A stretch of DNA of 64,000 bases from Schmidtea polychroa (taxonomy: Eukaryota), in contig CM097885.1 of NCBI GenBank assembly GCA_044892525.1, positions 10,976,001 to 11,040,000 on the forward strand, written 5' to 3'. The notes beneath the pieces were generated by a model. It worked only from the letters and a program-made list of their open reading frames with translations, made no database searches and had not been told where the DNA came from. Shown here piece by piece: positions 7,976-54,100 of this stretch; the first letter of the stretch is position 1, and each line of letters starts with the position of its first letter. The translations under genes and the position numbers were made by a program.

Positions 7976-8019
7976 AAGATTTGTTGAAATGATCAATTTA
8001 CAGTTTGAATAAAAATCAA

Positions 8020-8360: not shown

Positions 8361-8369
8361 GATACATGT

Positions 8370-11500: not shown

Positions 11501-12527
11501 TTTTTGTAATTTTGGTTGGAATGAATTGATAAATATTAATTTTAAGATTATTTAATTTTTCAAATGCTGGAACATCTTCAATTTTCATTGGGTGGGAAAA
11601 ATCTTTTGGATAAATTAATTCAGATTCATATTCTTCATATTTTTGAACTCTCTGTGGGTTAGTTGCTTGAGGATGTAAGTGTGCAAGTATTGACCATTGA
11701 AAACATTTATTATCTTTATTCTGTACATTTATAACATGGTTGGAGGTGAATGGTGTGTGAATAAAAGATTTAGGATTTGGTGGTGCGCCTCTCCAGTATT
11801 CAATCTCTATATTTTGAAAAGAGTGGAATCTTAAATTAGATTCTCCTAGTTCTTGTTCCACCTGTTCTTGTTTTTCTTCCAATTCTTTAGCTATATCATT
11901 AACAAGTTTATTTCCTGCTTTTGTAGAAAATAAATATTTATATGAGGTTTCAATTTTTACATCTAGAGGCATTGCGATTGAATCATCTCCTCTCCAGTAT
12001 TTTGCATTTCCTGTAAATTTAACTTTTATAACATTAAATCTTGATATACCAAATTTTTTTATAGCATCATCCATTGATGATATTATTTTTTTTTTATTTT
12101 CTCTTATATATTGCATGATTGATCTGGGTCCTCGTTTTACTTCTACAATTACATCGGTGTGATTGAAGTTGTCCCAATTAAACTCTAGTTTTTCAGCTTT
12201 TTCAGTCATTGAGTTTGAATCAGAATCTTTTGCTTCAAGACCACAATCTTCTATGTGTCTTAAGTAAAAAGATTTTATCTTCATCTTTTTTCCACATGCT
12301 GAACATTCGAATATTTCTCTGTTTTTAGGAACTCCAATACAATTTTTGAAATGCTTCTTATAACCTGAAAATAAATATCTATCCTTACATTTAGTACAGA
12401 TTTTGGAATTAGTGTCATCTAGTGTGTTAGCTTTTATTAAATGGTCTTTTGATTTTTTATGAGATGTTAAAGCAGTTTTATTTTTAAAATTTTTTTCACA
12501 AATTTCACAATTGAAAATAGCTTCCAT
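8554..12527 (-). pseudogene. Protein-primed family B DNA polymerase (pPolB); frameshifted near 10000-10020 and apparently C-terminally truncated
   Basis: N-terminal zinc fingers; NKCFQW...HYILIK region; Exo I VYCDFEA; EndoVII-like DHDH...YRGAAH..CN; Exo II FHNLFGYD; KGIYPYDY; Exo III YLSLDV..LAD; polymerase motifs YIDATALY, KLLNNAVFGK and MDTDS. The second frame resumes as TIELLVELDMFN...IRGG. Confidence 0.95.
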
Positions 12528-12687
12528 TTTTAAAAAAATTTTTTGGTTGGATATGATGTTTTGGTTTTGATATTAATTTTTATTTTTTTTAAATCTAAAA
12601 GTGATCAGGCGACCTAGATCATTATGAATTAGGTAATCTGATATTCTTATAACATTAAATCCTTATAACATTAAATCCTTAAGACCA

Positions 12688-12934: not shown

Positions 12935-15900
12935 CTTATACCTATCGAAAGCCCCGAACTTAAACCTTCAAATCTTAAAAATATGAAAGACACCTTCTGA
13001 TAAAGGGAAATCAATGTATGCAACTACATCCACCATAGAAATGACAAGAAATTCCAAAAAAGCCTAGAGGTTAAAGGTAAAACGTAAACCCTTAAGCCCC
13101 CTACCTTGGACCTCATAAAGACGAGAAAAACCAAAATATCGAAAGATACCATGTCCAAAGACTTAAATGATGAGATCTTATATTACTTTGACTTGCGAGG
13201 TAAAATACAGTGCCGTGGATGTCACTATACTTCCTTTTGTGGACAAATTTCTGCCACTGATATTGATAAGATTATATCGCACGCCAAAGAAATCCATAAC
13301 ATCACTATAACCTACAACTCTTTAATTGACTGCCACCAATGTAGACCCAAAGGGGAAGGAAGCAGATCTACTCTGAACACCATAACGCTTAGAAATCTCT
13401 ATAACCATATCGATCAATTCGAGCACCATTGTAGTGTGAGCAAAGACTTTCTTAAAATTATTACCCTAAAAATCGCTTCTTCTAATCGTTTTTTATGCCA
13501 CAACCTGAACAAAAACTGCAACAAATGTTTCCATTCCTTCGACATTGACACACCCTTAGACATAATAAATAGTCATATGGGAAAATACCATAAGAACCTA
13601 AAATTTGATACCAACTTAAAAATTTATTGTTTCTGTGGAAAGTGGATAAAATATCAAGACTCTAAAGATCATATCGAGAATAATCACCCCAACAAGGAGT
13701 ACTCTAATAGCCTCGTGGATAATGACCACAATAATAAAGTAAATATTAATAATAAAAATAACCTTTTTAATGATATTCTGGATACCCAAGAGGCAATCCT
13801 ATCACATCTAAATAACGAAATCATAAATAGAGATATACCTGACAATATCCTATTTACTAATAATATCGATAAGGAGGCTGCATGATGGTCACAGCATTCT
13901 ATCAAGGCCTTCATCTTTTCCTTTACCATCAGACCAACTACCATCTTTGTAGACCCCTATATAGGTAATGCTCTTATACAACACAACTTCAAAACCTTCT
14001 TTGAAACCTTTCCTTTCAAAGACTTTTCTGATTGGAATGAGATCATCATGCCAATGTGCCATGCTAAAGACAATTGGTTTTTCTTCTTTCTAGACAAACG
14101 TCGAAAGCTTGCAGTACTTATTGACCCTACAACTGATGAAAGCCCTTCTGTCCACCTCTCCCTGGCCAATAGCATTCTTGAAACCATCTTAGATCTACAG
14201 AAAATTGTCTCTTCTATTAATATCCATCTTCAATACCCTGAATATCCTAGATGCAGCACTCCTAATGAGTCAGCCTTTTTCGTATGCCACATGATTGAAT
14301 GCCTCATGAAAAATGATAGAATTACCTCTCCTAACATCCAGAATATGATTAATAGAATAAAATTTATCATTAACAAAATATTAAATAATAGAATGGCTAG
14401 TGATGATGTGCGAAAATATCGTCCATTATTCAATAGTCTTATAATTAATCTAAATAATGATACAACAGACTGTGAATCAGTCCTTTGTGAAATTAATAAA
14501 ATAAATGAAAACATTAATCCAAAAAAATACATTCATAAAATTCCTGCAGACATCACCCATAAAATGAGAAAAAATGCCAATGAACTACTAATTATTAAAA
14601 GAAATAGGTATAAGTTTAATCCAAAGGAGGAAATAACCAAAATACTAAATAATGAAACCAGTTTTCAAAAGCCTACTATGAAAAACCTTCTAAAACTCTT
14701 TGCAGGGACATAGCCAGCTGTCAAACTTTCTCTATAAACCTTCAATGCTCATATCCTGAAACTTACTCCTCCACTCCATTTGACCTTGATGATATTAAAT
14801 ACATCCTGTCCCAACTTGAAAACACTGCCCCTGGTCTTGACCTTATCACTCTTGCTAACTGGAAGAAAATATCGCCAGATCATGAACTAATCTTATCCAT
14901 ATGCAACAATATCCAACGGAACTCTGTATGCCCATCCTCTTGGAAAACCTTCCGTACTAAACTTATTCTTAAAGCTGGGAAAAATGAAATAAGCCATGAA
15001 GCCAGCTCATGGAGACCTATATCCATTATGAATACCATTTATCGTATCTTCTCTTCTCTCCTCAACAATAGGCTCCTGGGGTGGATCAAGGAAGGTAACC
15101 TTATCTCTAACAATCAAAAAGCGATTGGTGCCCCTGATGGCTGTGCAGAACACAACTTTATCCTTCAACTTATTAAAGATGCCTCTAATCGCAACAAGTC
15201 TGATCTACATATTATATGGCTAGACATCACGGATGCCTTTGGTTCCTTGCCGCATGACCTTATCTGGTACACATTATCTAAAATGGGTCTTCATCCAAAT
15301 TCCATCCAACTTATTAAAAACATGTACGACTAAGTTAACACTATCTTTGACTGTGAAGGGGAAACATCGCCATCTGTTCCAATTCTTAAAGGGGTAAAAC
15401 AAGGATGCCCCTTATCTATGACTCTCTTTTGTCTCTCAATAGACTTCATTATTAAAAACATCCTAATCTCTCATCCTTTTATACTAGGAGAAATGAATAT
15501 AGGTATCCTCGCATACGTTGACGACATAGTACTTATACCTGACTCTTACTCCTCAATCAACTCTGCTCTCCTTGAAACTATTCGCCTTGCTTCACTAGCT
15601 AACCTCAAATTTAAACCTTCTAAATCTGGCTACTTTCATCTTAACCATAACTCAAATTACCACCCCATAAAACTATATAACGAGATCATTCCTAAGGTAG
15701 ATGACTCAAACTTTTACAGATACTTAGGAGTTGACTTCTCCCTCAAAAAAAGACACAATATTGATGAAACACTTGAATGTGCTCTCAAGGATACTGAGAA
15801 AATCCTCAAATCACACCTTCACCCATCCCAGAAAATTAATGCCTTTAAAATCTTTATCCACTCGCGTCTTATCTTTCCTTTTCGCAATTGTGAAATACTC

Positions 15901-17150
15901 CACAACATTCTTGAATCCCATAAAAACAACATCATAAAAGATAAAGACCCACAAAAAGGCTTCGATAATAAGATTAGAAAAATAATAAAAATCGCTCTCG
16001 GAGATCGACTACTCCAAATAAATAATAACTTCCTTTATGCCTCGATAAAAATGGGCGGAATGGGTCTCACCTCAGCCATTGATGAATATATAATTCAAGG
16101 CATTGTACACCTCTCTCGTGCACTAAACTCCACCGATACATCCTTCCGCAATCTTATCCTCTCAGAACTTACGTTAGCAAGAGGCCAAGGCAATCTTGAA
16201 GCAGCTCTTTCCTGGATCAATGGCAATACTTCGAAACCATTCCAACACCGCTCAATATTCCTAAAATTTAAAAAATCTGCTGACCTACTTCGTCGGAAAT
16301 ATGGAATTCACGCTAAAATCCTCCTCCTAGACAACTTATATCAACTCGAAATCCGATACAAAGACAGAATAAATTACTTTCATAACGACAACGTTAACAC
16401 TATCTCCTCTGAAATTCATTCCATTATTGGCCTCATGCACGCTGAAAAATGGACTCGTCTAACGCACCAAGGCCATATTGCAAAATTAATTTGTAATAGC
16501 AGCACAGCTGGCTACCTCATAAAAACTGATATTCTTACTGATGCCCAATTCTTCTTCCTTATCAGGGCACGTAATAACCTCTTAGAACTAAACTTTACGC
16601 CCCATAGACTTAAAACCAAAAATCTATACAATGTAGACATTGTAATTCACACCCTGAAACCCAAGCGCATATCTTTAACCACTGTCCAGCAAAGATAAAC
16701 GCGCGTAGAAACAAACACTCTCGTGTCCTGGATGCCGTCTGTGAATTTCTCTTTAACCTTAACTTCTATTTAGATGTTGAAATAACACCTCTTGGTATAC
16801 CCACTCTGCTCAAACCTAACCTTATTAAAAGATCCGTAAGGAACAACAACAACCACATCCGGGATATTAAAGTCCCCTACGAACAGTGGGAAAACTTTAA
16901 AAGAGTGACCAATGATAACTATGCAAAATATGCTAATTTAGCTATCCAAATTGAAAAGGCACATAAAGTTAAAACCACCATCTCCGCACTTGTAATCGGC
17001 ACCCTTGGCTCCTGGGACTTTAACAATGACCAGATACTTAGCAAAATAGGACTTTCTAAATCTGAAATTAAAGGATTGTCACAGAAAGCCTGCACAGCCG
17101 CAGTAGTGAGTAGCTACCACATACTTAGAGAACATACTCTTAAGGATTAA
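12935..17150 (+). mobile_element. Degraded NeSL/Utopia-clade (RLE-type) non-LTR retrotransposon: Zn fingers, Ulp1-like domain, RT, CCHC, restriction-like endonuclease
   Basis: RT motifs APGLD, SSWRPISIMNTIYR, QKA..DGCAEH, WLDITDAFGSL, KGVKQGCPLS, AYVDD and YRYLG; CRHC...ETQAHIFNHC; KPNL...DIKVPYE and GTLGSW. Multiple stops and frameshifts. The 5' boundary is approximate. Confidence 0.85.
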
Positions 17151-26649: not shown

Positions 26650-26710
26650 CTTCCAAGGCATAGACGTTCATAATCACAAGGAACAATGCAGCGACGAATA
26701 AAAGTTTCAT
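26650..26710 (-). CDS. Signal-peptide exon, probable first coding exon of the YIRFamide precursor
   Basis: MKLLFVAALFLVIMNVYALE-G|GTAGAT. The phase-1 donor is compatible with the phase-1 acceptor at 20632; a direct join gives an 80 aa precursor. Middle exons cannot be excluded. Confidence 0.6.
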
Positions 26711-28306: not shown

Positions 28307-29164
28307 GTTATTATTGCTATATTGTTTTTTCATACAATGTAATATTTTATTTTATATTTCAATTATTAGCTTTATTATTATTACTGATATTTATCCCAAA
28401 AATTTAGTATTTTCTAAAAGCGGCATATTCAAAGATTATGAATGTATCAAAACCTAAATTGTCATTACTTTTAGAAGGTGATATCGTTAATTCGTAGCGA
28501 TTTAAACAAAAAGTAATAAAATTGACTCGAAAGTAATTAATTTCACTTCTAAGAAATTTTTATTTATAACAATGTCAGAAAGATATTTTCTTCAGTTTAA
28601 ACGGCGCGTTTCAAAGTTTCTTTAAAATAAAATATATAATTTTAAATTAATATTTGATTTAAGAAATTTCATCTCGATTCAGAATCACTTTTCAATGCCA
28701 CTTTTTATTTTTTAGAGTTAATTTTTGTAACATTTCATTTGATTTCTTCAAAAATTTCAGAGAAATGGAAAATAAAATTAAAAAATCCCCAAATATTTTG
28801 TCAATTTTCAGAGATCTTTGGCACAATAATTGACATGAGTTTTTATCATTTCAGTTAATAGTAGTCAGGATTCAGGGCAATACTGATTTTTTCAGGCTTC
28901 TAGAGTTGACAATGCCCATTATGAATTATTATTTTTAAATATTATTATAATTTTTATAGAGTGTAACAAATAACTGATGAATTTTCTTTTCTTTGTAAAA
29001 ATATTATCACAAGCAGAAAATTGGAACAAAGCTTTGAAGATCAACGTTGAAATTTTAAAATTATAGAAAGAAAAAAACAAATGTTTAAAGTTTTAAATTA
29101 TACAGTTTTTATGAATGATTGAATTTTTATTGTCGATATTAAATAATTTGTAATATAAACATTT

Positions 29165-29587
29165 GAAGCTTTCTGAAACCCAGTGCAAATTCCAATAGTA
29201 GACTAGTTTTGAGTTTTTGGCTCTCATCAGAACTATGCAGGAGACGCAAAGATTTCTCTCCGCGCCAGGTAAGTATACAACATTGCTGATTCAACTCTAT
29301 TGCATACTTTACCTGCTACACTGGAAATCACATGACTTGCAAATTAGCTAAAACATAGAAAAGATATCTGCAAACTTGTAAACATGGCATATGAAAAATC
29401 ATATTCGCCTCTGGAGACACCGTCTACAGACAGAAACTGTTTTCAAGTGCATCCGTAAACCTTTAGCATTTTTAACTTGTAATGGTGTAAAATTTATTTT
29501 ACGGATGTCTAACATTAAAATAACATAAACATTACAAGCTTTGTGATAACCAGTGCAAATCCCAATAGTAGACTAGTGTCGAGCTTT
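29165..29587 (-). mobile_element. Hammerhead-containing tandem repeat (retrozyme or Penelope-type), about 1.1 units, 370 nt between cleavage sites
   Basis: Reverse-complement homologue of 31873-32365; GTC cleavage triplets end at 29571 and 29201. Confidence 0.8.
29195..29236 (-). ncRNA. Minimal type I hammerhead ribozyme, mutated (GAAA to AAAA)
   Basis: ATAGTT-CTGATGA-GAG.CCAAAAA.CTC-AAAA-CTAG-TC-TACTAT. Confidence 0.7.
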
Positions 29588-29841
29588 ATTATTTTATTTA
29601 CATCTTTGTATTGAAATAAATTTTGGAATTAAGAGTGAAGAATTAAATGCTATGCCTCTTCCAATTACTTATCTTTTGTGACAAAAAAAATCTAAACAGC
29701 TTTTATACCATCGGTAGAAACTCTTCTTCACTAATATTTTTCACTGGCATTTGAATTTAAATCATGAATTCTTTAATTTATTTTCATTGAAAAATCACCA
29801 AATAATTCAGTTCTCAACGAATCCAAATTATTAGATTTAAA

Positions 29842-30294
29842 TAGGCTTGCAAACTCTCCCGTTTTTACCGGGACTCTCCCGGAATCGACTTTAGTCTTTC
29901 GTCCCCCAGTTAACTATGACCAGGGAGATGGAAATCTCCCGTCTTTCCGTTTTTACAATATTTTAAAATTTTTCAAGAAAAAAGTGCAGATTTTGAAGTT
30001 TTAACTTTTATTTGATTTCTCTAAAATAATGATAGTCAAGATTTATTTTTGCTCACAGTCACCGGAAGTTTAATTTGTTTGTTCACGGCGAGCGATTTTA
30101 TGTTTTTCTTCTTACCACGTTATTAGTCTGTCACTGTCAGGTTTTTTTCACTTTTAACATTTTAATGTTTAAAAACTAGTAACATGTGTAAACCAAAAAA
30201 GTGAAAAAACACCTGTTATATTATCTCTTAAGTGTTATACTGTTGGCAATTTTATAATCTCCCTGGTTCAAGGTTGTGGGTATTGGCAACCCTA
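29842..30294. mobile_element. hAT-type MITE (TAGGGTTGCCA-like TIR)
   Basis: Ends TAGGCTTGCAA ... TTGGCAACCCTA; flanks GATTTAAA / GATTTAAC (7/8 TSD match). Confidence 0.7.
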
Positions 30295-31139
30295 GATTTA
30301 ACATAATTAAAATAATTCATCTTCCAAAAACATAAAACCATTAATCAATGTAAAATAAACTGTTTAAAAATCTCTTAATTTACAATTTTAAAACAAAATC
30401 TTTTTAAACAAAATTTTAGAAAGTTTTACAGAAAACCAAAAAATAAGTATGAATAAAGAACTTCATTTTTTAAAAATATATTTTGACAGTTAATCAGGTA
30501 CTAAATAAAATCAATTAAAACAATTTATAAAATTTAATAATCCAAACATATTTTATACTGAAAATATCAGCAATTTTAAAAGGTTTTGAAATAATTTAAA
30601 TATTGACACTTCAGAAACCATCAGAAAACGGTAAAGCTATAGCAGAACGAATCCAGCAGATAAATCAATTTCATTTATCGCTATCATCGCTATTCATTGG
30701 AGTTATCATCAATCATATCCATTGCAATACATTCCGTAACATTTTCAAGGGAATTAAACGGATGAACATCATGTAAAATTATGTCATCAATAAAAACTCG
30801 TTATAAGAAAGACTTTGAAAGTTAATTATTAGGAAGTAATTTAATCAATTTATATCAGTTTACGGTAATATCCTAGAACGATAAATCTCCTTATCATATT
30901 TCTTTTATATTCAAACTCAGACCTTTCTTGTGATGGATTCAGGATAGTATCTGCTGTTTTCCTAATAATCTCAGTTTCAAGTAACTAAAATTTAGAATTA
31001 ATTCCCTCTTCAAAATAAATTTTTCATACAATGTGAAAATGATTTAAATTTCATGTATTTAATATAATTATGTGATTACTAATAAATCTATAAGTATATG
31101 ATGCAAAATTAAATTTAAAAATAGTATTTTTGTTATTTA

Positions 31140-31205
<66 letters not shown>

Positions 31206-31879
31206 TATAATAATAATAACTAATAATTAATAATAATATTAATTAATAATAATATTAATTAATTAATGTTTAGCAAAACAAATCTCACAATGCCAATAAA
31301 AGCGCAAGATCATATTTCGGGCCTAAGCGTTATCAAAATTATGATTAGTTTAAGTAGCTGTTGTTTATTCATGAACAAGTCTTTGGGAGAGGGAAATTAT
31401 CGGTTTACCTATTTGCCTTAAGATTAATCTCGAACCCACTTTAATATTTCAATTTTATTTGGATATTGTCAAAACGATGGGCGATTGTCAATAATAATAA
31501 TAATAATATTTTGCTTCTCAATTACAAATATTTATGACTCAACTTAAATTTTGGTTTGTTTACCAACGAACGTGCACAATAAACAAATTTCACGGGAGTG
31601 GTGATCTAGATGTCTTTCTAGGACTATTTCCAAATGAACTTGATTTGTAAATTCGAAAAGATTTTAGTAAGAAATTAATGAAATGGTTGGGAAAAATACA
31701 GATTTGTCATTATTTTAAATATGAACTGCGTCTTAGTGATTCTTAAACTTTTTATAGTCACAGCCGCCTAATAACTATATATTTTTTGCGGACCGCAATC
31801 TTTTATTATGTATATTTTTTATAAAAATCGATTTTTAACAATTTACTTTTAAGAGACAAAGTATTTTATTTTCTCCTGC

Positions 31880-31921
31880 ATACTACTGACGAGAGCCAAA
31901 AGCTCGAAACTAGTCTACTAT
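31880..31921 (+). ncRNA. Minimal type I hammerhead ribozyme with intact catalytic core
   Basis: ATACTA-CTGACGA-GAGC.CAAAA.GCTC-GAAA-C.TA.G-TC^TACTAT; palindromic ACTAGT stem III; predicted cleavage after 31915; one mismatch in stem I. Confidence 0.85.
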
Positions 31922-32227
31922 TGAGATTTGCACTGGGTATTACAAAGCTTGTAATGTTCATCCGTAAAAAAAATTTACACCATTACAAGTTAAAAATGCT
32001 AAAGGTTTACGGGTGCACTTGTAAACAGTTTCTGTGTATGATGGTGTCTCCAGAAGTGAATATGATTTTCCATACGCCATGTTTACAAGTTTGCAGATAT
32101 TTTTTCTGTGATTTAGCTAATTTGCAAGTGATGTGATTTTCAGTGTACCGGGGAAAGTATGCAATAGAGTTGAATCAGCAATATTGTACACTTACCTGGC
32201 GCGGAGAGAAATCTTCGCGTCTCCTGC

Positions 32228-32269
32228 ATAGTACTGATGAATGCCAAAAACTCGAAACTAGTCTACTAT
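32228..32269 (+). ncRNA. Minimal type I hammerhead ribozyme, stem II degraded
   Basis: ATAGTA-CTGATGA-ATGCCAAAAACTC-GAAA-CTAG-TC^TACTAT; perfect 6-bp stem I; predicted cleavage after 32263. Confidence 0.75.
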
Positions 32270-35235
32270 TGGGATTTGCACTGGGTATCACAAAGCTGGT
32301 AATGTTTATATTATTTTAATTTTAGACATCCGTAAAAAAATTTTACACCATTACAAGTTAAAAAAGTTGAAATTGTTAAATTTGTTCTTATCTATATGTA
32401 TTTGTGAACTTCCGCCTAAATTTCTAACCCATCTGTTAAAAATCACTGTATCATGTGATATTTAATTTAAGGCTTGTGTATTTTTATATTTTATAATTTT
32501 TATAATTTTTATTTTATATTTTATAACAAATTTATTTGATCAAATTTAATGAAATTAAATTTATAATTTTATTTAGAATATTTAAACATACTTTTATTTC
32601 TTTCATGTTTTTAATTTAAAAAATTATTTTATTTCTCATATTTCATTTTTTATTGTTTAAATTTAAATTTAATTATTTTAATTAAAAGTTATAAATTTAC
32701 CGATTAATTTAAAATATCTATCTGACATTGAAGGAAATTTTAAGGTTTTTCTTGTGGTGAGGAATTTTCGTATACAAAAACTTTTTATAACATTAGTAAA
32801 TACATAAAATGATAGATGATTACCCTTCTTAAACCGGGTAAAATGTTTTTTATTTATCAATTCTTTGTTAAAATAATTTTTTGCAATTTTTTCTGGGCTG
32901 GTGGCAGAATTAGATTAGAACTGTATGGACGCAAAGTGTTAGGCAAAAGTGCTAAAATTTTAATTTAAAAAAATTCAGAATTTGATATATTTATATAATA
33001 TTTATTGAGATTCACATAAATTTCGAAAATTAAATAATTATTAGAATTTCTGCAAGAAATATTTAAACCAATGTATTTTTAAAATAGTGCATTTACAAAA
33101 TAAATTAATAATTAAAAAGAAATATTAAGTAAAAATTAATTGTAAAATTTTAATTTAATTAAATAAATCACAGAAAGACACACAGATCTTGTAAGTTTAA
33201 TATGTTATACCTATCAGTTGGTAATAAGAATAATAATAAGAAGTAGAATAATTGAATCTGCTGTAAGTAGACAATTTGTTCGTTAAACTCACGTGACAAG
33301 TTTTTGGTTGTATAAGAATTTATAACATCGTCAAAGCGCAATTAAGTAAAAAATGTATACTGAATTTTAATTTTATTGGATGTGAATAAATGTTGATGTA
33401 TTTTTCTTGTGGTTCTGACTGTATGAGACTAATAAGAATAGGTACATACATCAGCCAGTGTTCACGTTTTTCTGCTTATAGGAGATTTAATTTGGAAATT
33501 GTGTATCAGCAACATACACCACGTGACCATCTCCATTAAAAATGGCAGTGTGTGCATCCAAGAATATTAATAAGAATTCTATATCATCATTAAAAACTTT
33601 TCCCAGGTGTTGCATTCTCATATCCACAAGACAGTTTGGAAATTTTGAGGATCAAAATGTCAAATAGAGATTGGCTTTTTCCAAGTCATTCATTTCATAA
33701 ATAATTGAACTGTAAAAATTGGAGCGCAAATAACAGAAATTTGAATTTTGCCTTAATTAGCAGAATATAGATAAAGGAGACAAAAGAGGATTTACAAAAC
33801 GTAAAACGATTACAGAAAAAGAATTAAAACAAGAAGATACTCAACTAGATAAACAGCTTGTGATAGAAAAACTAATATTGTTTTCAAATTGATAAATTTT
33901 GGGTTCTGCCTGCAAAGTAACTGATGCCATTGATCATATTATGTAGGTTATTCTATTGAATAAAGAGAACGAAGAGTCAGTACTTGATTTACTATGGTTA
34001 TTCATTACAAATATCTAACAATACTTTTAGCTGCTTCAATTATTTTTAGCATGCTGAATTTAGTTTACACTTTACCTCTCCGTTGATTTATCAGAATAAA
34101 TAAGTTGCACAAACCTCTCATATACTCGAGCTACCTTCATTTCCTCAATTAGTTCAACTCCTCTCTAAAGTTGTCTTCTCAATTGTATTTTCTTTTCTCA
34201 TGTCATCAATTTCTTTTAAGATTGAAGATCCACATTCTTTCTTGTGGACATAAAACCTACGCAGGTAACAGTAATGACAATATATCTTTGTAAAGTCTTT
34301 TATCTTTTCCCCATTCATTGACTATTTTTAATTGATTCTCTCTTTAATTTTTTAAAACTATAGGTCAATTAATTCTAATTAAGTCTTATAAAAATTAAGA
34401 AAATTAAAACATCCTTAGTCTCACTTTATTATATAGGTTCAAATATCATAAATTTTAGTTTCCTAATTTTCTGTTTAGTTTTAGTTACTATTTCATTTTA
34501 CCTTTTACTTCCTTATCTTTTATCTGTTTTCATTTACCATTTCATTTTACTGACATTGGTGCCCACCTTATTATTGACATTAGTGCTATAATTAAAGTCA
34601 GTTATAATTATATATTTCTATAAGGATGTGATAAAACCGTATAAATTTACAATTTAACATTCACAAATTTTTGTATGAAATTAAAAATAATTTTTCTTAA
34701 TCAAACATTTGTCTGTAAAGAACTGTACAAAATCTATATTGTATGACCTTTATTTGACATACACAAGGATGACTCAAATTTTAAACAACACACATCAATA
34801 CGCCTGTTTAATATATGATTGTATTTAATGACAAAATAATATGACGTCTCAAATTTTATACAATGTACATTGTAAGATTAATGTAATATTGCATTTTTTA
34901 CTGATTTATTTAAAAGTTTCATTGTATAAAATATTATCTGTAATTCTATTTTTCATAAATTTATCCCTTTCATGCAACCATCCACTATTTACCAATAATT
35001 TATTTATTCCTCATATATATATATATATATATATGAATTTAATTACAATATAAATTTTATTTCAATTCATATACTAATAACATGAAATTATCAACAAATT
35101 TAACAGTAATTGATAAAATACTTTTGACAAATTTATTTATAAAATAATTTCTTTTAATAAAATATTTTTCGAAATTTTATTTCAGTTGAAACCTCACGCT
35201 ATAATTTTTTATATTAAATTTACAATAAAAAATTA

Positions 35236-41968: not shown

Positions 41969-42830
41969 TTAAATAAAATTTATTTTAAGTTGACGCCGAA
42001 ACAAGATTGAGAATGTGATTGCTGCAAGCCACATTGAATCCTGCGGGTTCATCTTTAGAAGTCGTACCTGAACACCGGAGGATTTTCCCTTCATGTTGCT
42101 GCCATTATCATAAGATTGATCTCTGCAATCCGTCATATCCAGTCCCAACTGAGTGAGCGTGTCAGGTATTTTCAGAAACCCCACAAAATACTCTTTAATC
42201 AAGGCCTTTTCCTTTTGAAGTTCCCCAAAACGAATGATCATGGTCATTTTCTCCTGATGGCTTATATCTGGCGTACAATAAATTATAATACTGTAGTTAT
42301 TTACAGCCTTCTCTTGATTTGTAATCTCTTTCAATATGCGGTCAGGAATGAGATTGATCAATTCATTTTGACTTTCATTTCAAAGATGGCCCCAGTATCA
42401 GCATTCTGAATGCGTTGCAAATGTTCTGCCATTATGGGATCAAACTTTACAAGTAATTGCACTTCGTCAAGAAAGTTTCCATTACTATGAACGTAGAGCC
42501 TATCGGAATACACACGAAAGGCCATATTCCCTGCTAAAACTGTACAACTGCTATAATGCGTTCTAACACGGTGCGATAATGAGCTGTCTTTTCCCACTAT
42601 AGATAGCGTCTGCTTGTCAAGAGTCGAACCGGTTTAAAGGCGTAATTCAAGTTCCTACTAGTTTCCCGTGTGCTCCTTGTGGTCCATTGACTTCTCATGC
42701 TTCTCTAAGGTTTTACTCAAGTATTGCCAACTGCAGAAACCTTGATATGTTAATTTCATTTTTATCTTACCAAACAACTTGCAGCAAAACAATATACCCT
42801 ATTCATGATTCCGGAACGACATTTTAGAAC
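41969..42830 (-). pseudogene. hAT (ZMYM1/DUF4371-like) transposase fragment
   Basis: NMAFR...NGNFL..V.LL.KFDP, TPDISHQE and QSYDNGSNMKG..SGVQ motifs; broken frames. Confidence 0.75.
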
Positions 42831-45800
42831 TGCAACAGTAACAATAAATAAAATATTTTAATTTGGATCCGTTCAAAACAGTACTCTTTTTGTTATAATC
42901 TTGTAACAAAGGTTTAGTTCACCAACAAATCTGAATTCAAATTGCAATTAACACATTTTTTACAAATAATAAATAATAATAAAATAATAATAAATAACAA
43001 AAAATTATAAAAAAAATATGACGTCAATCTTTATCTATGAGTCATATACTCGCACTTTGCTACGTCATAATTATAGTAAGTAAGAAACCCGTTACATCGC
43101 CAAGAGATCAACTCAATTGATTATAATACAGTGTGCCTAAAAACTACACCTAACTGCGAAATATAACATTATCTATAATCTAAAAAAAAAACAATAAATA
43201 TATATTGTAGGAACACACAAACTTACCTGTGTGTAAAAATTTAATGCTGCGAAATTTAACATATTTATTATAGGAATCTAAAAAGTGAGAGAAAATAATT
43301 AAGCATACAAGCACAGCACACATAATGAAAAATACATACAAAATTAAGTAAAGTGTTTTTATGCGAAATTAACATTGATTAACATATAATTAACATATCA
43401 ATATTTTCGAATTATTTAAAAAGTTATGTACAAAAAAACGTTTGAATCAGATTCTGACTGCTCTACCTTGAGCTTTAGGGAAAAAAAGAAAATACATCGT
43501 AAGATTTAATTATAAAATAATTTAGAATATAAAATTTCTTTAGATTTACAGATATTGAAGAAGGTCCTTCGACATCTTTGAATTTGCACGAAAAGATTCG
43601 CAAATCGTAAATTTTAATAAATTATTTTAACAAATTAATATTTTCATAGAATTACAGAAATAGACAAAATTCGAAAGAAGATTACAAAAACTTTAAAAAT
43701 ATTTTATCCATTCTTTACTAAATGTCTTTAAAAAATAAATGTTTCGTGATTACTTTACTTATTTATAATTATAAAAATATCTAACTTACATTTTTACGAA
43801 ATAAATCCAAATAAATCCAAATAAAATACCATAAAATTCCTAAAAAACACCTGAAATTTAATTAATAAATGCTGACTAACAGTAATATTTAAGAACTTGA
43901 ATAATGATCTCATAATTATATAAAATCAAAATTCAAGTCCTAAAAATTACTTCAATTCAAAAACTTACCTTAAAACGATTTTTGAAAAATTGAAAAAATG
44001 AAATTAATTTAACATTGTCATATAATTGGTTACTCACCTCAGGTGGTGTGCACACCAACGTATATTATAGACAATGTTAACTTTCGCAGTTAGGTGTATT
44101 TTATACAATAAATACACGGAATAGACGGAGTTACACAATATTTAGTACAACTTTAACACAATTAAGCTATGCGTTACTAAGATTTATTTATTTCTTCATT
44201 TTAATTATATTTTGGTACATATTTAACTTTTTACATTAAAATACTTTCTATCAAAACCGGGGGCATTTAAATAGCGACGGCCTTGGCTACAATTTATAGA
44301 AGAGAGACAAAATATTCTATCGAGAAAAAACGACAATAAACTAGTTGGTTGTATAATCAAATATTAGTGATCGAGCTAAAAGAAATTTGTTAACTACATC
44401 AAAACAGAAATCAGAGCCACGAAAATCAATTTTGATTTGGCTTCCTGCTGGAAATTTATATTGGAGTAAACGAATAGACCAATTATCTTTTGAGGAATCT
44501 CTTATTCAATTGGAAATATTTAGATTATCATTGTGTTACGCCTATTTCTTTAGCTTACTAACATAACGACGTATCAGTAATTAATTTTTGATACTGTTTT
44601 ACTTTAAGCATCAACTTAGTGTAGGGAATATTTGGTAATGCATTGACCAAATTCTGGGTCGATATTATCGCGCTTAAGCTATTTTGTAAGCTCACTCCTC
44701 TTTTACCTTATGTTGTTGGTGCAAATTAGGACCAGCCTTGATTTCTTTGTAATAAGTCTTTAGGACGGTTCGAATAACCGATTTTCTTTCCTTTAGAAAG
44801 CAACTAAAGTTTAGTTACCATTTTAGTTAATTGTACAATTTGAATTTATAATTAATAAAGTTTTTAAAACATATCGTTTATTTATTTATTTAACGACCTA
44901 ATCTAAATTGTCTTAGTCGTATCCCACTATACGAACCTAACATAGCTATCGGTTGATAGTGCAGTGGAGTTCCTTAAGAATTTTCTACGTGAAATAAAAG
45001 AACCGTAATAGTGCTGCTTTTTATTGAGCTCAACATCTAGAACTGTGCACCAGATTTCGTTATCGGAACGTTCAACACGAAAAAGATAAAACAATCTTAA
45101 AATCATAAAACTATAAATATGAAAAATGCGTATTTCGTAGATCTTCATTTAGTTAGAAATAGAACTTATAAAAGACAATGCCGAAAATAAATGTTTCATA
45201 GAAAGTATTGGTCTATAATCCTAAACGAAATAAAGATAAATGAAAATGAGAAAATAGTGGTTTAAGATTAATCAAAAAATGAATGATTTTACAGAAATAG
45301 TGTATACTAAATTGTATGACTGGATGCTGCACATTAATTGTCTCAGTGTCAAAGGTTACCCAGCCAAACCTCTATATTACAAAGTGGAAGGGACCATAAA
45401 ATTATTTCGTTAATTTCATTGTTTACTTGGCATCTTCATAGTGGGTTATTTGAATATTTATCAGGGTTGTTTTTGGTTTCGGTCAGTGCCTTTTGAGTCA
45501 CATTGATCATTTTAGGTTTTCCTCTTCTATTCCAAACGGTGTTCTGATGCTGCATTCTTGGTTTGGCTTGTTTGTTTATTTATCACAGTTTTATTTTATT
45601 TATTATTTTCTTATATAGTGGATTTAAGTAAGACGTTAAGACAATAAAAATATAAAAAGATAAAAAAAGCCATCACAATGCATAAAAAACCTATAAAAGA
45701 AGCCCAGGCAAGGCCAAGAAAAACAAGGCCATTACAAGGCATGTTAAACAGCCATAAAGGCAACAATAAGCAGTCATTTATAGAGTTCCAATATAAAAAT

Positions 45801-46928: not shown

Positions 46929-49029
46929 GTAGTGAGCAATTTCATTTTACAAAATAAATAAAATTTAAAAAGAAAATAATTCAGAATAGTGGATTTGGGA
47001 ATGTGATCTGAAGGTCTTAAAAGGTTGAAAAATGAAGGATTGAAACCAACATGAAAGGATATTTGAAATAACTGTACAACCAGTTTGCGGTGATTTCATT
47101 ACTAATCATAAAACATTTTAATTTTTTTTATTTTTGAAGTGACATTAACGGAAAAAGAGTAAAAATATTGCCTTAATTGGTTTAAAAGGTTGACACCTAG
47201 GTCCCCTTTGGATTACCTAACAAAAAATGTCCCTACATGAGAACTATTGAATAATTAATTTACAGGATGACTGATAAATTCTCGGCATTATTGAATTGCG
47301 CTAAACTCACATCTCAATAAAATACTTACATAATATTTTAAAATTTTGAATCCTTTTAAAACTATACTTTATCAACATTTTTCATCATTTTCTTGCAAAT
47401 AAATTAAAATTTTATTTTCTTATAACAAACCTTCCTATAAGACGGTGTAGTGAGTGAGCCGTTTGATGGTATCATCGAGATCTACATAAATCTTATATGG
47501 TTTACTGGGAATCAATATGATCTCAATGGGCCTCAATGAATCCAGTAAGGCTCCAAATTTATCTTCACTATATAATTATATAAAAAGTCAATATAATAAA
47601 AATTCATAAAATTATAAAGAAGCATTCATAGATTTCTTAAATTTGCGAAAAACAACAGTTTCTGATTCAAAAAAAGTCAAACGTTATAATTCTCAATTAC
47701 AACTTATAAAAGCACTATTTCCTCTATCAAAATATGACGCTATTGCTGTTACATGGTTTTAGAAAGAATCAAAAGTTTTAAAGTTGTAAATAGTTTTAAA
47801 GTTGCATGTACACATCTTCAAATAAAAAGAATTAAAAAGAAAAGAAGTAACCAAAACACATGTTATATAAGACAAAAGTTCACCAATAATTAATGTTTCA
47901 GCCGATTGTGTTTGTTTGATCATTTGTGTGCGTGTATACACCTAATTCCGAAATTTAGTAACCTCTATAATCTTTAGAAAAATCAATAAATTTATAGTAT
48001 AGGAGCACACAAACTTACCTGTGTGTAAAAATTTATTGTTCCGAAATTTAATAACTTTATAACTTTAGTGAATACAGAGAAGATAAAATAGATATGAAGT
48101 ATGATATGAAACATACTTTTAGTGATTCAATCATTGACTCGTTGAATGAAAATAATATCAATCGGAATTCGCTGAGAAATAGAGAAGCGGTCGGCGAATT
48201 GGTTCGAATCTCAGTGGACAAGTTCAATCTAGTGAACACAAATCTAAGAATTTAATGAACTTTAAATGCATTTACATTCCAGTTGAAGATATAACTGGAA
48301 CAATTGCAATGAAATTTAAAATAAACACAGATCAAAAGTTAAAAAATATAAATGATTTTTCTTTATAGTGATTATTTTATCGGACCTCACTGATTGTCAG
48401 TGCATTTATTGAGAATCTTCTGGCATTGGTAAAGAAATAATAAAATATTAAAATTGAACTAAATTACATTAAAATGTGATATAAATTTGACAGATTACGT
48501 TGGCTGAGAATAAAATTTGGGAATAAAAAAACTAAATAATAACCAAACTTGCAAATATAGTCGAATATTCAAGCCGGCGTGAAAATTTAGGGGGAAAGGC
48601 GGCCATACTACTTATTAATATCGACAAGTTAAGTGATAACTCAATTAGATCAGGAAGCAATTAGAACTCAAGAAGATTTACTGATTAATTTTCCTCAAAG
48701 GAAAAATATTTGTGAAGATTATAATTTTTTTCATCCTCTAGTTGTTTACATTTTGCTAAAAAAACGATTGCAAACATTTGTTGTTTATCGATAAAAGTTT
48801 TCCGTAAAATTTCCCATCTCATCAGTTATAAGGATCTACCTGGGGATTTAATTAGTGACAGCGCCTAATTTGTTGCCACCAAAAACTTGTTGGTAATTAT
48901 ACAAGTATAGTACTTTATGATCCCTACCCATCTCAAGTCCTGACGGGTTAATTAGTAATGAAAATCTACTTCCGATTAATTTTTATTACAAATAAAATTT
49001 CAAAATAATTTATTTAAAGTAATAATAAC

Positions 49030-49853: not shown

Positions 49854-50085
49854 TATGAGGAAGTTTTATGATGAAGAAATTTTTAAATTGAAAATTTTAA
49901 AAATTAAATTATAGATTAATTTTTAAAAAAGAAATAAGAAGATATTTTAATTAAAAATATTTTTGTAGAAAATTTGTTTAAATAAGAAAGTTTAAAGAAG
50001 ATATAATTTGATACTGATATTTACTGAAATAAAATTATGGAAACAAAAACTGATTTTAATGTTTTACAGGATGAACCTCCTAATA
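49854..50085 (+). repeat. 5' LTR (232 bp, TA...TA ends)
   Basis: TATGAGGAAGTT...AACCTCCTAATA, direct repeat of 54191-54423. Confidence 0.9.
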
Positions 50086-51131
50086 TGGTGGCAGCGGTAA
50101 ACACTGACGCAATCACCGAAAGATTGCTACCAAAGGTATTCTGCCAAGGTGACGACTTGGAAAAGTTCATTAAAAGATGCGAAATTTATTTCGACGCCAA
50201 GGGAATCACGCAGAAGAAAGATCAGGAAAGATTAACATCTTGCATGATTGATGAGGATCTCCTGGAAGTGTACGCCAAAACACTGAAAAAAGCCGAAGGA
50301 TTTCAGGCTAGGTTGCGATTGGCATTCGATCGCGAAAGAGATGTTTTAAAGGATCTACAAAACTTGTTGAATTACAAGCGGAAGGGTGAAGAAATAGAAA
50401 CGTATTTTAAAAAGGCGGAGGACCTTGTTGATAGGTTGTTTGAAAATAAAGAATTTACCAAAGAGAAATTAACAGCAAGGGTGTTAATAGTATGTGCGGA
50501 GAATAAAGAAGTTGAGAAAGAAGTGATACTACGGAAGATAAAAAGCACAGAAGAAATAAAGGAAACACTAACTCTGATGGACAAAGTAGACAAGCAAAGA
50601 GATCAGATAAACAGTATGAAAAGTTACGCCAGAGTGGTCTATCAGGAACCACAGGGAAGAGTACAATACAAGAAGAAAGAACAGAGAGAAGAAAGTATCC
50701 GAAGAGAAATGCCAGAATGCTGGTTATGCCACAAAATAGGACAAACGAAAATTGATTGTCCAATAAAAGGTAAAATAGAATGCTGGACATGTCATAGAAG
50801 CGGACATATAAGTAGAAACTGTCCAGATAAAAAAGCTCCAAGATGTTTTGGGTGTGGGAAAGAAGGTCATATAAGAAGATTGTGTCAGGAAATACGTTGT
50901 GAAAGATGTAGCAGAAATGGTCATAGATCCGAGGAGTGTTATACAAAGATGAGGTACGGGAGAGCGACGGAGAGACAAAGATTCACGGGAAACAGATACA
51001 GTCGGATAAATTGTATCGAGGAAGAAGAAGAAAGGGAATCGTGTGTAGAGACAAATGAAAATAATTTTAGGAAGACGTACCCAAACAACAGGGATCCACC
51101 AGTAGAGGAGTTGGTTGGAGCCATATTCTAA
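50037..51131 (+). CDS. gag: Gag with four CCHC zinc knuckles (first one degenerate)
   Basis: CWLC...QTKIDC, CWTC...HISRNC, CFGC...HIRRLC and CERC...HRSEEC. The start is either ATG 50037 inside the LTR or ATG 50085 overlapping the PBS. Confidence 0.88.
   Translation: METKTDFNVLQDEPPNMVAAVNTDAITERLLPKVFCQGDDLEKFIKRCEIYFDAKGITQKKDQERLTSCMIDEDLLEVYAKTLKKAEGFQARLRLAFDRERDVLKDLQNLLNYKRKGEEIETYFKKAEDLVDRLFENKEFTKEKLTARVLIVCAENKEVEKEVILRKIKSTEEIKETLTLMDKVDKQRDQINSMKSYARVVYQEPQGRVQYKKKEQREESIRREMPECWLCHKIGQTKIDCPIKGKIECWTCHRSGHISRNCPDKKAPRCFGCGKEGHIRRLCQEIRCERCSRNGHRSEECYTKMRYGRATERQRFTGNRYSRINCIEEEEERESCVETNENNFRKTYPNNRDPPVEELVGAIF
50086..50098 (+). promoter_or_regulatory. Primer-binding site, tRNA-Leu-like
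   Basis: TGGTGGCAGCGGT directly after the LTR, complementary to the ...ACCGCUGCCACCA 3' end of tRNA-Leu(AAG)-type tRNAs. Confidence 0.75.
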
Positions 51132-51155
51132 CAGAAAATTTGATGGGATATCCTC
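51080..51155 (+). promoter_or_regulatory. Candidate -1 ribosomal frameshift signal (gag-pol)
   Basis: C CCA AAC heptamer in the gag frame; the -1 frame is open from just upstream into pol. Downstream stem GGATCCACCAG/TTGGTTGGAGCC; loop GAGGA is complementary to TCCTC at 51151-51155. Confidence 0.6.
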
Positions 51156-54100
51156 AAGGGGCAGAAAAGTGGGAGAATGTTGGAAGGATAAGCGAGAAAG
51201 TATACAGGTTCCTAAAGAGAGAAATGTTTGAAGAGGAAGTGGAAAGAATTGGAACCATTGAAACGGAGCAGGTTGTTGAAATTTTGTATAACAGAATGCA
51301 AGGAAGGCCTAGTATAACAGTAAGGATGAATGGGGAAAATTTCGACTGTTTATTAGACACTGGGGCAAGAATCAATGTAATGAGTGTGAACTGTTTCAAC
51401 AAGCTACGAGGACAACAATTGACGAAAAGTGACGATAAGTTATGATGCGCAAACGAGAGTACGATCGAGACAATAGGAAAAACGAAGGTGCAAGTAACCA
51501 TTGGAAATGTTTCGAAGGAAGTTATATTCATTGTGGCGGAGAAAGTGACACCAGACGTGATTGGAGGAATCGAATTACAAGAAACATTTGGATTTAGACT
51601 GTTAAAAATTAAAGATATCGAGGCTAGTGAAAAAGACAAGAACTATATTTGTAACATTGAAGCAAAATTTGGCAGAAAAATAAAGGATGAAGAACGATTG
51701 ATACGAGCGTTGGAACAGTTAAAGATCAATGAAGATAGCAAATTAAAGGAAATTATAACAAACAGTGGAAACGTGTTTATGGCAGATAAATGGGATGTGG
51801 GTCGCACACATTTGGTAAAACACAAGATAGTTACAAGAGGTGAGTCGATAAACATAAAACCATATCGCCAACCACTAAATTTGGAATCAAAACTTGAAGA
51901 AGCAATACAAAATTTGTACGAAAATGGAATTATACGGAAATGTAACTCTCCATGGAATACACCGCTAATATGTGTATGGAAAAAAGAGAAAAAGGATATT
52001 ATACTATGCTTGGACTTTAGACACCTGAACGCGGTAACAGAGAGGCAGCATTTCCAATGCCAAACATAGACGAGATGTTGGATTTGTTAGGAGGATCCGT
52101 CTTTTTCAGCTCAATCGATCTAGGTAATGCATATTACCAAGTGGAACTAGAAGAAGAATCACGGGAGAAAACAGCTTTCTCAACAAAGAACGGACAATAT
52201 TGTTTCAACAGAATGCCATTTGGAATTGCAGCAGCACCAGGTACGTTCCAAGAAATGATGACAAAAGTATTAGGCAAAATAAAGGGAGCAATGGTGTATT
52301 TGGACGACATCTTGATTTATTCAAGCAGTAAAGAGAAACACTATACAATACTCGGAGAAGTGTTAAAGGCGATTGAGGAAGCAGGCCTAAGGATTAATCC
52401 AGAAAAATGCCAAATAATAAAGGGAGAAATCAGATTCTTAGGACACATAATCAGCAAGGAAGGAGTACAGACAGATCCATCTAAAATTCAGGCCATACAG
52501 AACTTTGGGAAGCCTAATTGCGTAAAGAAACTCCGAAGCTTTTTAGGTATTTGCAATTATTATAGAAGATTCATCAGTGATTATGCAAAGAAGGCAAGGA
52601 TGTTATAACAATTATGTAGCGGACCAAGTAACAAAAAATTAGAATGGAGTGAAGGAACGAATAGCGTGTTTGAGGGATTGAAATTAGCACTCACGACGGC
52701 GCCAATCTTATGTTTTCCGGATCTGAAAAAGGAGTTCATTTTAGATACCGACGCTAGTTTCGATACCATTGGAGCAGTACTTTCACAAAGAGATAAAGAT
52801 GGAAAGGAAAAAGTAATTGCGTATGAATCACACTCGATGACGAGCCACGAGAAAGGATATTGTATTACAAGAAAGGAACTTTTGGCGGTATATTATTTTT
52901 GCATTCATTTTAAGCACTATCTCTACGGAAGAAGATTCACGCTCAGGACAGACCACAAGGCAATCACGTTTATGATGACAAACAAGAAGCCGATTACTTC
53001 ACAATTCCAAACATGGATCAATTATTTGAGCAGTTTAGATATAAGAGTAGAATACAGAAAGGGTATTAATCACCAAAATGCAGACATGGTATCGAGAACT
53101 AAATGTGACACGTGTGTTCAATGTCAAATGGCCCACGAAGAAGCTAAGAAAGGAAAGATAAAAACCAGATTACTAGACTCGATCAGAGAAGAAGGAAGAA
53201 GCAACATCCAACATGGAATTGTAGAAGTACGAAAGAAAACGATGATACCTGAAAATGAGTTACAAGAAACAATAAAGGAAATACATAAACTATTGTGTCA
53301 TGCTGGAGTCGAGAAGATAGCCGATTATATGAAAGATAGATATGTTGGAAAACACCTGTGGAGTCAGATTCAGGAAATTGTTCGAAGTTGTGAGATTTGT
53401 CAAAAAACCAAGGCTTTAACAATAACAACGAAAGAACCAGTAAAAAAACAAGATTCGAAGGAAATGTTCGAAATTATATTCGTGGATATATGTGGACCGT
53501 TGACAGAAACCAAAGGATGTAAGAAGTATATATTGGACATAATAGATCAGTATAGTAAGTATCAAGTCTTAACTGCGATAACAAAACAAAACGAAGAAAC
53601 AATAAAGAAAACGATTTTAGAAAAGTGGATTTTAAGATTTGGATGCCCAAAGGAGATAAGAGTTGATTGCGGAAAGGCGTTTGAATCAGGAATGATGAGA
53701 GAATTCACAAAGATGCTAGATATTAAATTATGTTTTTCGAGTCCATACTATCACCAAAAAAACGGTCAGATAGAAAGACAATTCAGGACAATACGGGATT
53801 TGATAAATGCTACTTTACAGGATAGAAAGAAGACGGATTGGGCAGAGATATTACCAGAAGTCGAATTCACTTTAAATGCAACCAAACAAAAAACGACAGG
53901 GAAAAGCCCGGCAGAGATAGTTTTTGGAAAAAAGATTAGCAGGGAAAAATGGTACGGGTCCAAAGAAATGCCGATAAAGGAAGAACTAGAAGAACAAACA
54001 AGGAGAAAATTCAATGTAGGAGAAGAAGTATTAGTAAAAGTAGAAACACGCCACAAAGGCCAGGACAGGTATGAAGGTCCGTACAAAGTGATAGATAAAG

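What the first reader, a model, noticed from the sequence alone, without database searches (positions are those of the whole stretch)
29165..32365. Tandem minimal hammerhead ribozymes: a retrozyme-like circular-RNA system
Seen: two loci in opposite orientation, each more than one unit long and with hammerhead sequence at both ends of a non-coding unit (348 and 370 nt between GUC sites). The consensus across copies is a complete type I hammerhead: stem I ATAGTA/TACTAT, CUGAUGA, stem II GAGC/GCUC, GAAA and palindromic ACTAGT stem III. Established: such minimal hammerheads are linked to Penelope-like elements, cleave as dimers, and tandem copies in animals give small circular RNAs (retrozymes). 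Inference: these are genomic copies from rolling reverse transcription of a circle of about 350-370 nt. Each copy here has at least one lesion.
Basis: partly seen in the sequence, partly recalled or inferred. Interest (0 to 1): 0.7.

Follow-up and report, generated by a model that had tools for sequence, protein, structure and literature searches.

The report
Flatworm hammerhead repeat with U1 start
Two worn-out copies of a small non-coding jumping repeat with a self-cutting RNA motif, a kind already known from many animals, sit in what looks like a planarian genome, and each carries just ahead of the motif the first 17 letters of the cell's U1 splicing RNA, a feature I did not find described.

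Summary
Two opposed loci (1.2 and about 1.4 units) have GUC sites 370 and 348 nt apart. The hammerhead is the ordinary metazoan type I form with a palindromic helix III. One of the four motifs is only a 3' half, and only one keeps an intact core and stem II, so neither locus should release a monomer. The unit is non-coding, 36-37% GC, and folds as a circle far better than shuffles on the ribozyme strand (z about -4.4; 0 of 32 control folds as low). No Penelope reading frame lies within about 10 kb. This fits a decayed non-LTR retrozyme family, probably in a planarian; cleavage, circles, copy number and the mobilising enzyme are not shown. New here: 75 nt upstream of the cleavage site both units carry the first 17 nt of a published planarian U1 snRNA (17/17 and 16/17), caged in two hairpins. 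It is probably a captured U1 5' end; whether the U1 promoter came with it is open. A masked splice donor of a Penelope-type intron is the main rival reading of that segment.

The parts
29151..29587 (-). Locus 1: 437 nt, 1.2 units; 5' end inside loop 2 of a hammerhead, 3' end 50 nt past the second cleavage site
29565..29587 (-). Hammerhead C: 3' half only; A14 changed to C (29578); C17 at 29571
29201..29570 (-). 370-nt monomer between cleavage sites; 36% GC; circular fold -105.7 kcal/mol, z -4.46
29298..29315 (-). 5' arm of a long hairpin; pairs with U1-like nt 1-11; holds a donor-like site CAG|GTAAAG (GT at 29312)
29260..29276 (-). U1-identical head ATACTTACCTGGCGCGG, 17 of 17 equal to the start of S. 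mediterranea U1A1; 75 nt upstream of C17
29244..29265 (-). GC-rich hairpin with GAAA loop; its 5' arm is U1-like nt 12-17 plus 3 nt
29233..29312 (-). Candidate 80-nt GT-AG interval ending inside hammerhead helix I (rival reading; no splicing evidence; GT absent in locus 2)
   Evidence: analogy
29195..29236 (-). Hammerhead D: G12 changed to A (29210), U-U at the base of helix I, C-A in stem II; predicted inactive; C17 at 29201
31872..32364 (+). Locus 2: 493 nt, about 1.4 units; 5' end at the foot of the GAAA hairpin, 3' end 101 nt past the second cleavage site
31880..31921 (+). Hammerhead A: intact core and 4-bp stem II, one C-C mismatch in helix I; the only plausibly active copy; C17 at 31915
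31916..32263 (+). 348-nt monomer (lacks 20 nt present in the next unit and in locus 1); 37% GC; circular fold -94.2 kcal/mol, z -4.32
32148..32160 (+). 5' arm pairing with the U1-like head; the GT of the donor-like site is lost here
32188..32204 (+). U1-like head, 16 of 17; 75 nt upstream of C17
32228..32269 (+). Hammerhead B: intact core and helix I, but 3 of 4 stem II pairs broken; C17 at 32263

Best explanation
Two decayed, 5'-truncated genomic copies of a roughly 370-nt non-coding retroposed repeat of the non-LTR retrozyme kind, in a probable planarian. SHOWN in the sequence: head-to-tail units longer than one monomer, a type I hammerhead at the unit junction, no coding frame, a strong fold on the ribozyme strand only, lesions in all four motifs, and a U1-identical 17-mer 75 nt ahead of the cut site. 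INFERRED from known families: an intact master copy elsewhere is transcribed as a multimer; hammerheads cut after GUC, probably as double hammerheads through the ACUAGU palindrome; a host RtcB-type ligase closes the monomer into a circle; a reverse transcriptase supplied in trans, most likely of a Penelope-like element, starts at variable points and runs more than once round (about 60:40 circle over uncleaved multimer), stalling at hairpins, which gives the 1.2- and 1.4-unit inserts without target-site duplication. The U1 segment is most likely a captured U1 5' end: about 0.5 by a template jump during reverse transcription (no promoter), 0.2 by DNA-level capture with its promoter, 0.2 a strand that masks a splice donor, 0.1 chance. 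The two copies here probably cannot make a monomer.
For: Spacing and motifs. Rfam Hammerhead_1 alignment. Unit size, low GC and no ORF match the definition in PMC7229834 (GC; 0 of 73 nearby frames reach a Pfam cut-off). Circular fold z -4.32 and -4.46, 0 of 60 shuffles each, against -0.91 and -2.35 on the other strand; 0 of 32 control folds reach -4, lowest -3.17. Helix I stays formed in the predicted circle (pair probability about 0.8 in locus 1, 0.4 in locus 2), as reported for animal retrozymes. The loci start and end at different points of the unit and keep intact junctions. U1: 13 of 13 with the Rfam U1 consensus, 17 of 17 with U1A1; composition-based chance about 1e-8 per unit, no other match within 4 mismatches in 64 kb. 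Host: mir-753 at 61.8 bits, cut-off 62.
Against: No RNA evidence of any kind, no copy number, only two loci seen. The best hammerhead is below the Rfam gathering score and the isolated motifs fold no better than shuffles (z 0.01, 0.20, -0.71). No array of two or more complete units, so the 'active' criterion of the 2026 preprint fails, and in that preprint only 1 of 9 predicted dimers cleaved. Only 1 of 104 consensus pairs shows a two-sided change, and it lies in a broken stem II. Both second hammerheads share one stem II variant that both first ones lack, and the two units of locus 2 differ by a 20-nt indel: not what copying one monomeric circle gives, although 0.56 such shared sites are expected by chance. 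The host's own U1 gene was not seen; the U1 match was noticed after the fact.
Confidence: 0.72

Rival explanations
1. The loci are 5'-truncated ends (solo pseudo-LTRs) of an autonomous Penelope-like element. The unit holds an 80-nt intron ending inside helix I, and the U1-like strand is the arm that base-pairs with and masks its donor, which would favour intron retention.
For: In D. virilis Penelope the intron ends at the 5' side of helix I and is 75 bp long; here a CAG|GTAAAG donor-like site and an AG in helix I are 80 nt apart. Opposed hammerhead pairs 100-700 bp apart occur among truncated PLEs of S. mansoni. Xenopus retrozymes are related to pLTRs.
Against: No PLE frame within about 10 kb. 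Downstream of the hammerhead comes the same non-coding unit again, not an ORF. The motif lacks the min-HHR traits (extra base between 9 and 10.1, long helix II). Locus 2 lacks the GT. The AG is forced by helix I. U1 nt 13-17 do not pair with donors, and their match has a chance of about 2e-4.
Confidence: 0.15
2. A hammerhead-bearing satellite or SINE-like repeat that spreads through linear multimeric RNA or by DNA duplication, with no circular stage; the two loci may be one old inverted duplication of a 1.4-unit insert.
For: One stem II variant shared by both second hammerheads, a second shared site in three-way comparison, and a 20-nt indel inside locus 2. The loci are only 2.3 kb apart.
Against: Homology stops at the unit ends, with different end points and unrelated flanks. 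The shared site is within chance. Pairwise identities are star-like, 85-93%, not higher across matching positions. Tested animal repeats of this build all gave circles.
Confidence: 0.12
3. The hammerhead resemblance is accidental or no longer relevant; the repeat is an unrelated non-coding element.
For: Below Rfam cut-off; isolated motifs do not fold better than shuffles.
Against: All core positions and three helices in register; 2 pattern matches against 0 in 100 shuffles; the lesions are private to single copies except one.
Confidence: 0.01

Closest known systems
Metazoan non-LTR retrozymes (Cervera and de la Pena 2020, PMC7229834; Li, Clavereau and Pollet 2026 preprint)
   Same: Type I hammerhead with short palindromic helix III, 150-450-nt non-coding unit, low GC, head-to-tail copies, self-paired circle; a 20-nt indel variant is also reported in coral; platyhelminths are named as hosts.
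   Different: Only 1.2-1.4 units and all motifs damaged here; carries a U1-identical head, whereas a review states that animal retrozymes seem to lack promoters (PMC7761336). Cleavage and circles untested.
Newt satellite 2 and schistosome SM-alpha hammerhead repeats
   Same: Hammerhead repeats with a captured small-RNA promoter: snRNA-type in newt, Pol III in schistosome (second-hand); promoter followed by hammerhead in SM-alpha. The U1-like start here also lies just ahead of the hammerhead.
   Different: No promoter is demonstrated here; what is seen is the transcribed 5' end of U1. The primary newt paper was not held.
Pseudo-LTRs of Penelope-like elements with min-HHRs (PMC4209133, PMC8557442)
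   Same: Type I hammerhead, partial tandems, 5' truncation, opposed copies, often no clear TSD; an intron ending in helix I is possible.
   Different: No ORF; canonical rather than min-HHR geometry; no 30-40-bp tail identified.
SINEU of crocodilians (Kojima 2015, PMC4494074)
   Same: U1- or U2-derived sequence added to a non-autonomous retroposon, by template switch; transcription unexplained.
   Different: SINEU has long snRNA heads at the 5' end, a poly(A) tail and no ribozyme in the passages read; here 17 nt lie inside a tandem hammerhead unit.
R2 elements with an HDV-like ribozyme (PMC3774820, abstract)
   Same: A ribozyme frees element RNA from a host-gene co-transcript and some host sequence stays attached.
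   Different: R2 is autonomous and site-specific in 28S; no U1 gene flanks these loci.

Membership tests
Type I hammerhead ribozyme | Core C3-A9, G12-A14, A15.1-U16.1, H17 with three helices, helix I open | tested here: met
   Copy A complete but for one helix I mismatch; B, C, D damaged
Type I hammerhead ribozyme | Rfam RF00163 gathering score (34 bits) | tested here: not met
   24.7 bits for the best copy
Type I hammerhead ribozyme | Self-cleavage after H17 | not testable with these tools
   needs in vitro assay
Non-LTR retrozyme | Head-to-tail unit of 150-450 bp with a type I hammerhead per unit | tested here: met
   348 and 370 nt; partial tandems only
Non-LTR retrozyme | Low GC, non-coding | tested here: met
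   36-37% GC; no Pfam match at cut-off in 73 frames
Non-LTR retrozyme | No LTR, PBS or PPT | not tested
   no LTR beyond the unit overlap is seen; PBS and PPT were not searched
Non-LTR retrozyme | Highly self-paired predicted circle | tested here: met
Non-LTR retrozyme | Many genomic copies | tested here: inconclusive
   2 loci in 64 kb; no genome held
Non-LTR retrozyme | Unit-length linear and circular RNA in vivo | not tested
   no read data were obtained
Non-LTR retrozyme | TSD, when present, longer than 4 bp | tested here: inconclusive
   no TSD abutting either locus; best repeats 5 and 7 nt, off the junctions
Active retrozyme locus (2026 preprint criterion) | [quoted passage not shown] | tested here: not met
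   this lowers the activity of these copies, not family membership
Penelope-like element (autonomous) | RT and GIY-YIG frame next to the repeat | tested here: not met
   short or heavily broken remnants could be missed
Penelope-like element (autonomous) | min-HHR geometry: long helix II, extra base between 9 and 10.1 | tested here: not met
   4-bp helix II directly after A9
Penelope-like element (autonomous) | Spliceosomal intron in the pseudo-LTR | tested here: inconclusive
   GT-AG candidate in locus 1 only
U1 snRNA gene or pseudogene | 5' end sequence | tested here: met
   17/17 and 16/17 with U1A1; 13/13 with Rfam consensus
U1 snRNA gene or pseudogene | Stem-loops I-IV and Sm site | tested here: not met
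   no U1 hit at E up to 10 on either whole locus
U1 snRNA gene or pseudogene | Upstream snRNA promoter (PSE about 60 bp upstream) | not testable with these tools
   no planarian U1 upstream sequence could be obtained

The most novel reading that the evidence does not exclude
The repeat unit captured the start of a U1 snRNA gene, promoter included, so each unit fires its own snRNA-type Pol II transcript that begins at the U1-like +1, 75 nt ahead of the hammerhead cut; the resulting circle carries the U1 splice-site-recognition sequence caged in a hairpin. This would give an animal retrozyme a defined internal promoter, repeat the newt satellite 2 solution independently in a flatworm, and put a releasable U1 mimic into a stable RNA.
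Probability: 0.2. Interest if true: 0.72.

Novelty: new variant of a known kind. Interest (0 to 1): 0.5.

Why it matters
The retrozyme kind is known and these copies are dead, so that part is ordinary. How animal retrozymes are transcribed so strongly is open: a review says they seem to lack promoters. A U1 start placed just ahead of the ribozyme gives a direct test in a tractable regeneration model: map the capped 5' ends and compare the upstream DNA with host U1 promoters. If the segment instead masks a donor, it bears on why Penelope-type elements retain introns, also stated as unexplained.

Tried and rejected
Whole-window Rfam scan: no hammerhead and no U1 listed at E up to 1. No whole genome is held, so copies were not counted. 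Sequencing runs: 23 listed, 20 hold part of locus 2, from 10 studies, best share 0.52; no RNA holder listed; none was laid, so this says nothing on expression or copy number. No read or contig pile-up was obtained, which leaves cleavage ends, circles, splicing and family variants open. Pattern scans for more copies: 1 hit in metagenomes (L001), a chance match inside a bacterial reading frame with only 16-25 nt of similarity, rejected; 0 in viral contigs; 0 in prokaryote genomes. Penelope remnants: 73 frames of 50 codons or more within about 10 kb each side (a 200-nt stretch not covered; low-complexity frames dropped), 5 weak Pfam matches at E 0.018-0.037, all below cut-off. TSD search negative. 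Whole-U1 ancestry of the unit rejected. A weak antisense U4 hit (12.2 bits, E 3.2) taken as chance. A longer, about 40-bp fold-back around the U1 head is not established (2 and 60 of 1000 shuffles reach the score). Octamer-like 7-of-8 words upstream were seen by eye only and not counted. Earlier-finding look-ups by sequence, place and relatives returned no other copy. Coats 1994 and Lunse 2017 were not held.
Full report
OBSERVATION. The two loci are real. Locus 1 spans 29151-29587 on the minus strand, locus 2 spans 31872-32364 on the plus strand; they point away from each other across 2.3 kb of unrelated DNA. Cleavage positions lie 370 and 348 nt apart. The core pattern has 2 matches in the window and none in 100 shuffles. 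A profile of the two monomers finds only these five pieces in 64 kb. The monomers are 92% identical outside gaps (28 of 348); the four hammerhead-side segments are 85-93% alike in a star-like pattern.

STATE OF THE MOTIFS. Copy A (31880-31921) has a full core and a 4-bp stem II, with one C-C mismatch in helix I; Rfam Hammerhead_1 gives it 24.7 bits against a cut-off of 34. Copy B has 3 of 4 stem II pairs broken. Copy D has G12 changed to A and two more mismatches. Copy C is only a 3' half with A14 changed. Releasing a monomer needs two cuts, so neither locus should do it (inference from the known core requirements; core mutants were inactive in PMC8490949). The geometry, 6-bp helix I, 4-bp helix II and a short palindromic helix III, is what PMC4209133 calls canonical for metazoans and expects to work as a dimer; the Penelope min-HHR traits are absent.

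THE UNIT AS RNA. GC is 36-37%. Folded as circles, the monomers reach -94.2 and -105.7 kcal/mol, z -4.32 and -4.46, with 0 of 60 shuffles as low; the opposite strand gives z -0.91 (10 of 60) and -2.35 (1 of 60). Of 77 control windows of similar GC, 16 were folded on both strands with 20 shuffles each: none of the 32 reached -4, the lowest was -3.17. This points to selection on the ribozyme-strand RNA. It does not prove a circle, and with two sequences covariation is nearly empty (1 of 104 pairs). The isolated hammerheads fold no better than shuffles.

SURROUNDINGS. No frame of 100 codons or more near the loci is protein-like, and none of 73 frames of 50 codons or more within about 10 kb reaches a Pfam cut-off. 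The reverse transcriptases elsewhere in the window belong to a non-LTR element at 13.1-17.2 kb and an LTR element at 50.0-54.2 kb (the clade labels are my reading). No TSD abuts either locus. The host is probably a planarian: mir-753 scores 61.8 bits at 43886-43946, and earlier unchecked notes on this genome say the same. The species is not known to me.

75 nt upstream of the cleavage site both units carry a copy of the U1 snRNA 5' end. On a 56-nt stretch chosen after the fact, Rfam aligns 13 of 13 bases to the U1 consensus (10.3 bits, E 0.41). The supplementary table of PMC6312358 shows that the most-read S. mediterranea variant, U1A1, starts with the same 17 bases as locus 1; locus 2 has 16 of 17; none of the other 10 listed variants matches that far (compared by eye). 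Chance from composition is about 1e-8 per unit, and nothing else in the window comes within 4 mismatches; allowing for the many motifs I might have noticed still leaves it small. The rest of U1 is absent. In the predicted circle, bases 1-11 pair with an upstream arm and 12-17 with a GAAA hairpin (17 of 17 with probability 0.95 or more in locus 1, 15 of 17 at 0.85 or more in locus 2). The upstream arm reads as a donor, CAG|GTAAAG, in locus 1, and an AG inside helix I lies 80 nt on, which recalls the 75-bp D. virilis Penelope intron that ends at helix I. But locus 2 lacks the GT, the AG is required by helix I, and a donor-masking strand would not need U1 bases 13-17 (chance about 2e-4). I therefore put capture of U1 at about 0.7: by template jump, as proposed for SINEU, at 0.5, and with the promoter at 0.2. 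Against promoter capture, the 40 nt upstream of +1 are taken up by the complementary arm. For it, the position matches the promoter-then-hammerhead layout of SM-alpha, and newt satellite 2 is reported to use an snRNA-type promoter (second-hand).

MECHANISM. Shown: anatomy, decay, fold, U1 match. Inferred from PMC7229834: multimeric transcript, cleavage, RtcB ligation, reverse transcription in trans by a Penelope-type enzyme. More-than-unit length, intact junctions and four different end points fit copying of a circle; the 5' end of locus 2 sits at the foot of the GC-rich hairpin and that of locus 1 in loop 2, plausible stall points (inference). An uncleaved multimer fits as well. Two details lean that way: a stem II variant shared by both second hammerheads and the 20-nt indel within locus 2. 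The first is within chance (0.10 expected for that pair, 0.56 for any pair); the second may have arisen after insertion.

WHAT IS KNOWN. Non-LTR retrozymes are described from many phyla, platyhelminths included, and are linked to Penelope pseudo-LTRs in frogs. Searches for hammerhead with Schmidtea and with Penelope and planarian listed no paper on a planarian family; searches for U1 snRNA with retrozyme, with hammerhead satellites and with SINEs and ribozymes listed none on a U1 head in a hammerhead repeat. The library lacks most subscription papers, and I did not see the supplements of PMC4209133, PMC7229834 or the 2026 preprint, nor Repbase; a planarian family may be listed there.

PAPERS SEEN. 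2026 preprint: parts 1-3 of 5. PMC4209133: parts 1-2 of 4. PMC7229834: passages, part 2 of 6, Discussion. PMC11167929: part 1 of 4. PMC6312358: passages, one section, part 2 of 3 of one supplement, searches of 13 of 14 or fewer supplement files as reported. PMC8557442, PMC2220036, PMC4494074, PMC8490949, PMC6765202, PMC7761336, PMC3706591, PMC2770079: passages. PMC3774820: abstract. Coats 1994 and Lunse 2017: titles in reference lists only. Hammerhead numbering and the role of G12 and A14 are recalled.

VERDICT. A real but decayed member of a known kind (confidence 0.72 for the retrozyme reading as stated, about 0.99 that the hammerhead repeat is real), with one unreported and testable twist, the caged U1 5' end. 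New variant of a known kind; interest 0.5.

Noticed in passing
window 29842-30294: A 453-bp non-coding element between the two loci with 12-bp imperfect terminal inverted repeats and an 8-bp target duplication (7 of 8 identical), as hAT-type MITEs leave (the hAT label is recalled).
   Followed up: partly
window 43886-43946 (-): mir-753 precursor match, 61.8 bits against a cut-off of 62; points to a planarian host.
   Followed up: partly
window 91-12572: Polinton/Maverick-type cassette: chromo, integrase, A32-like ATPase, a TBP-like gene head-to-head with it, RING finger, protein-primed-type polymerase B. Already noted elsewhere in this genome.
   Followed up: no
window 13088-17150 (+): Non-LTR retrotransposon with RT, broken by stops and frameshifts; an in-frame stop at 13883-13885 may be the conserved one reported in e1-7879953; codon not checked.
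   Followed up: no
window 50028-54195 (+): LTR retrotransposon interior: zinc knuckle, RT, RNase H, integrase, with frame breaks.
   Followed up: no
window 26650-26710 (-): ATG-started 20-codon hydrophobic stretch ending at a GT, like the signal-peptide first exon of a host gene, 2.4 kb beyond the 3' end of locus 1.
   Followed up: no
window about 43140-43280 and 47930-48070 (+): Two similar AT-rich copies 4.8 kb apart, each with an antisense donor-like 9-mer; unrelated to the hammerhead unit.
   Followed up: no
window 32205-32255 and 29260-29210: By eye, a few 6-7-nt words after the U1 head resemble words in the 3' half of U1A1, but spacing differs and Rfam finds no U1 hit on the whole loci.
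   Followed up: partly
window 3928-4356, 41969-42379, 56335-56685, 62085-62585: Fragments of hAT-type transposases (Pfam hits for the first two; the others by eye).
   Followed up: no
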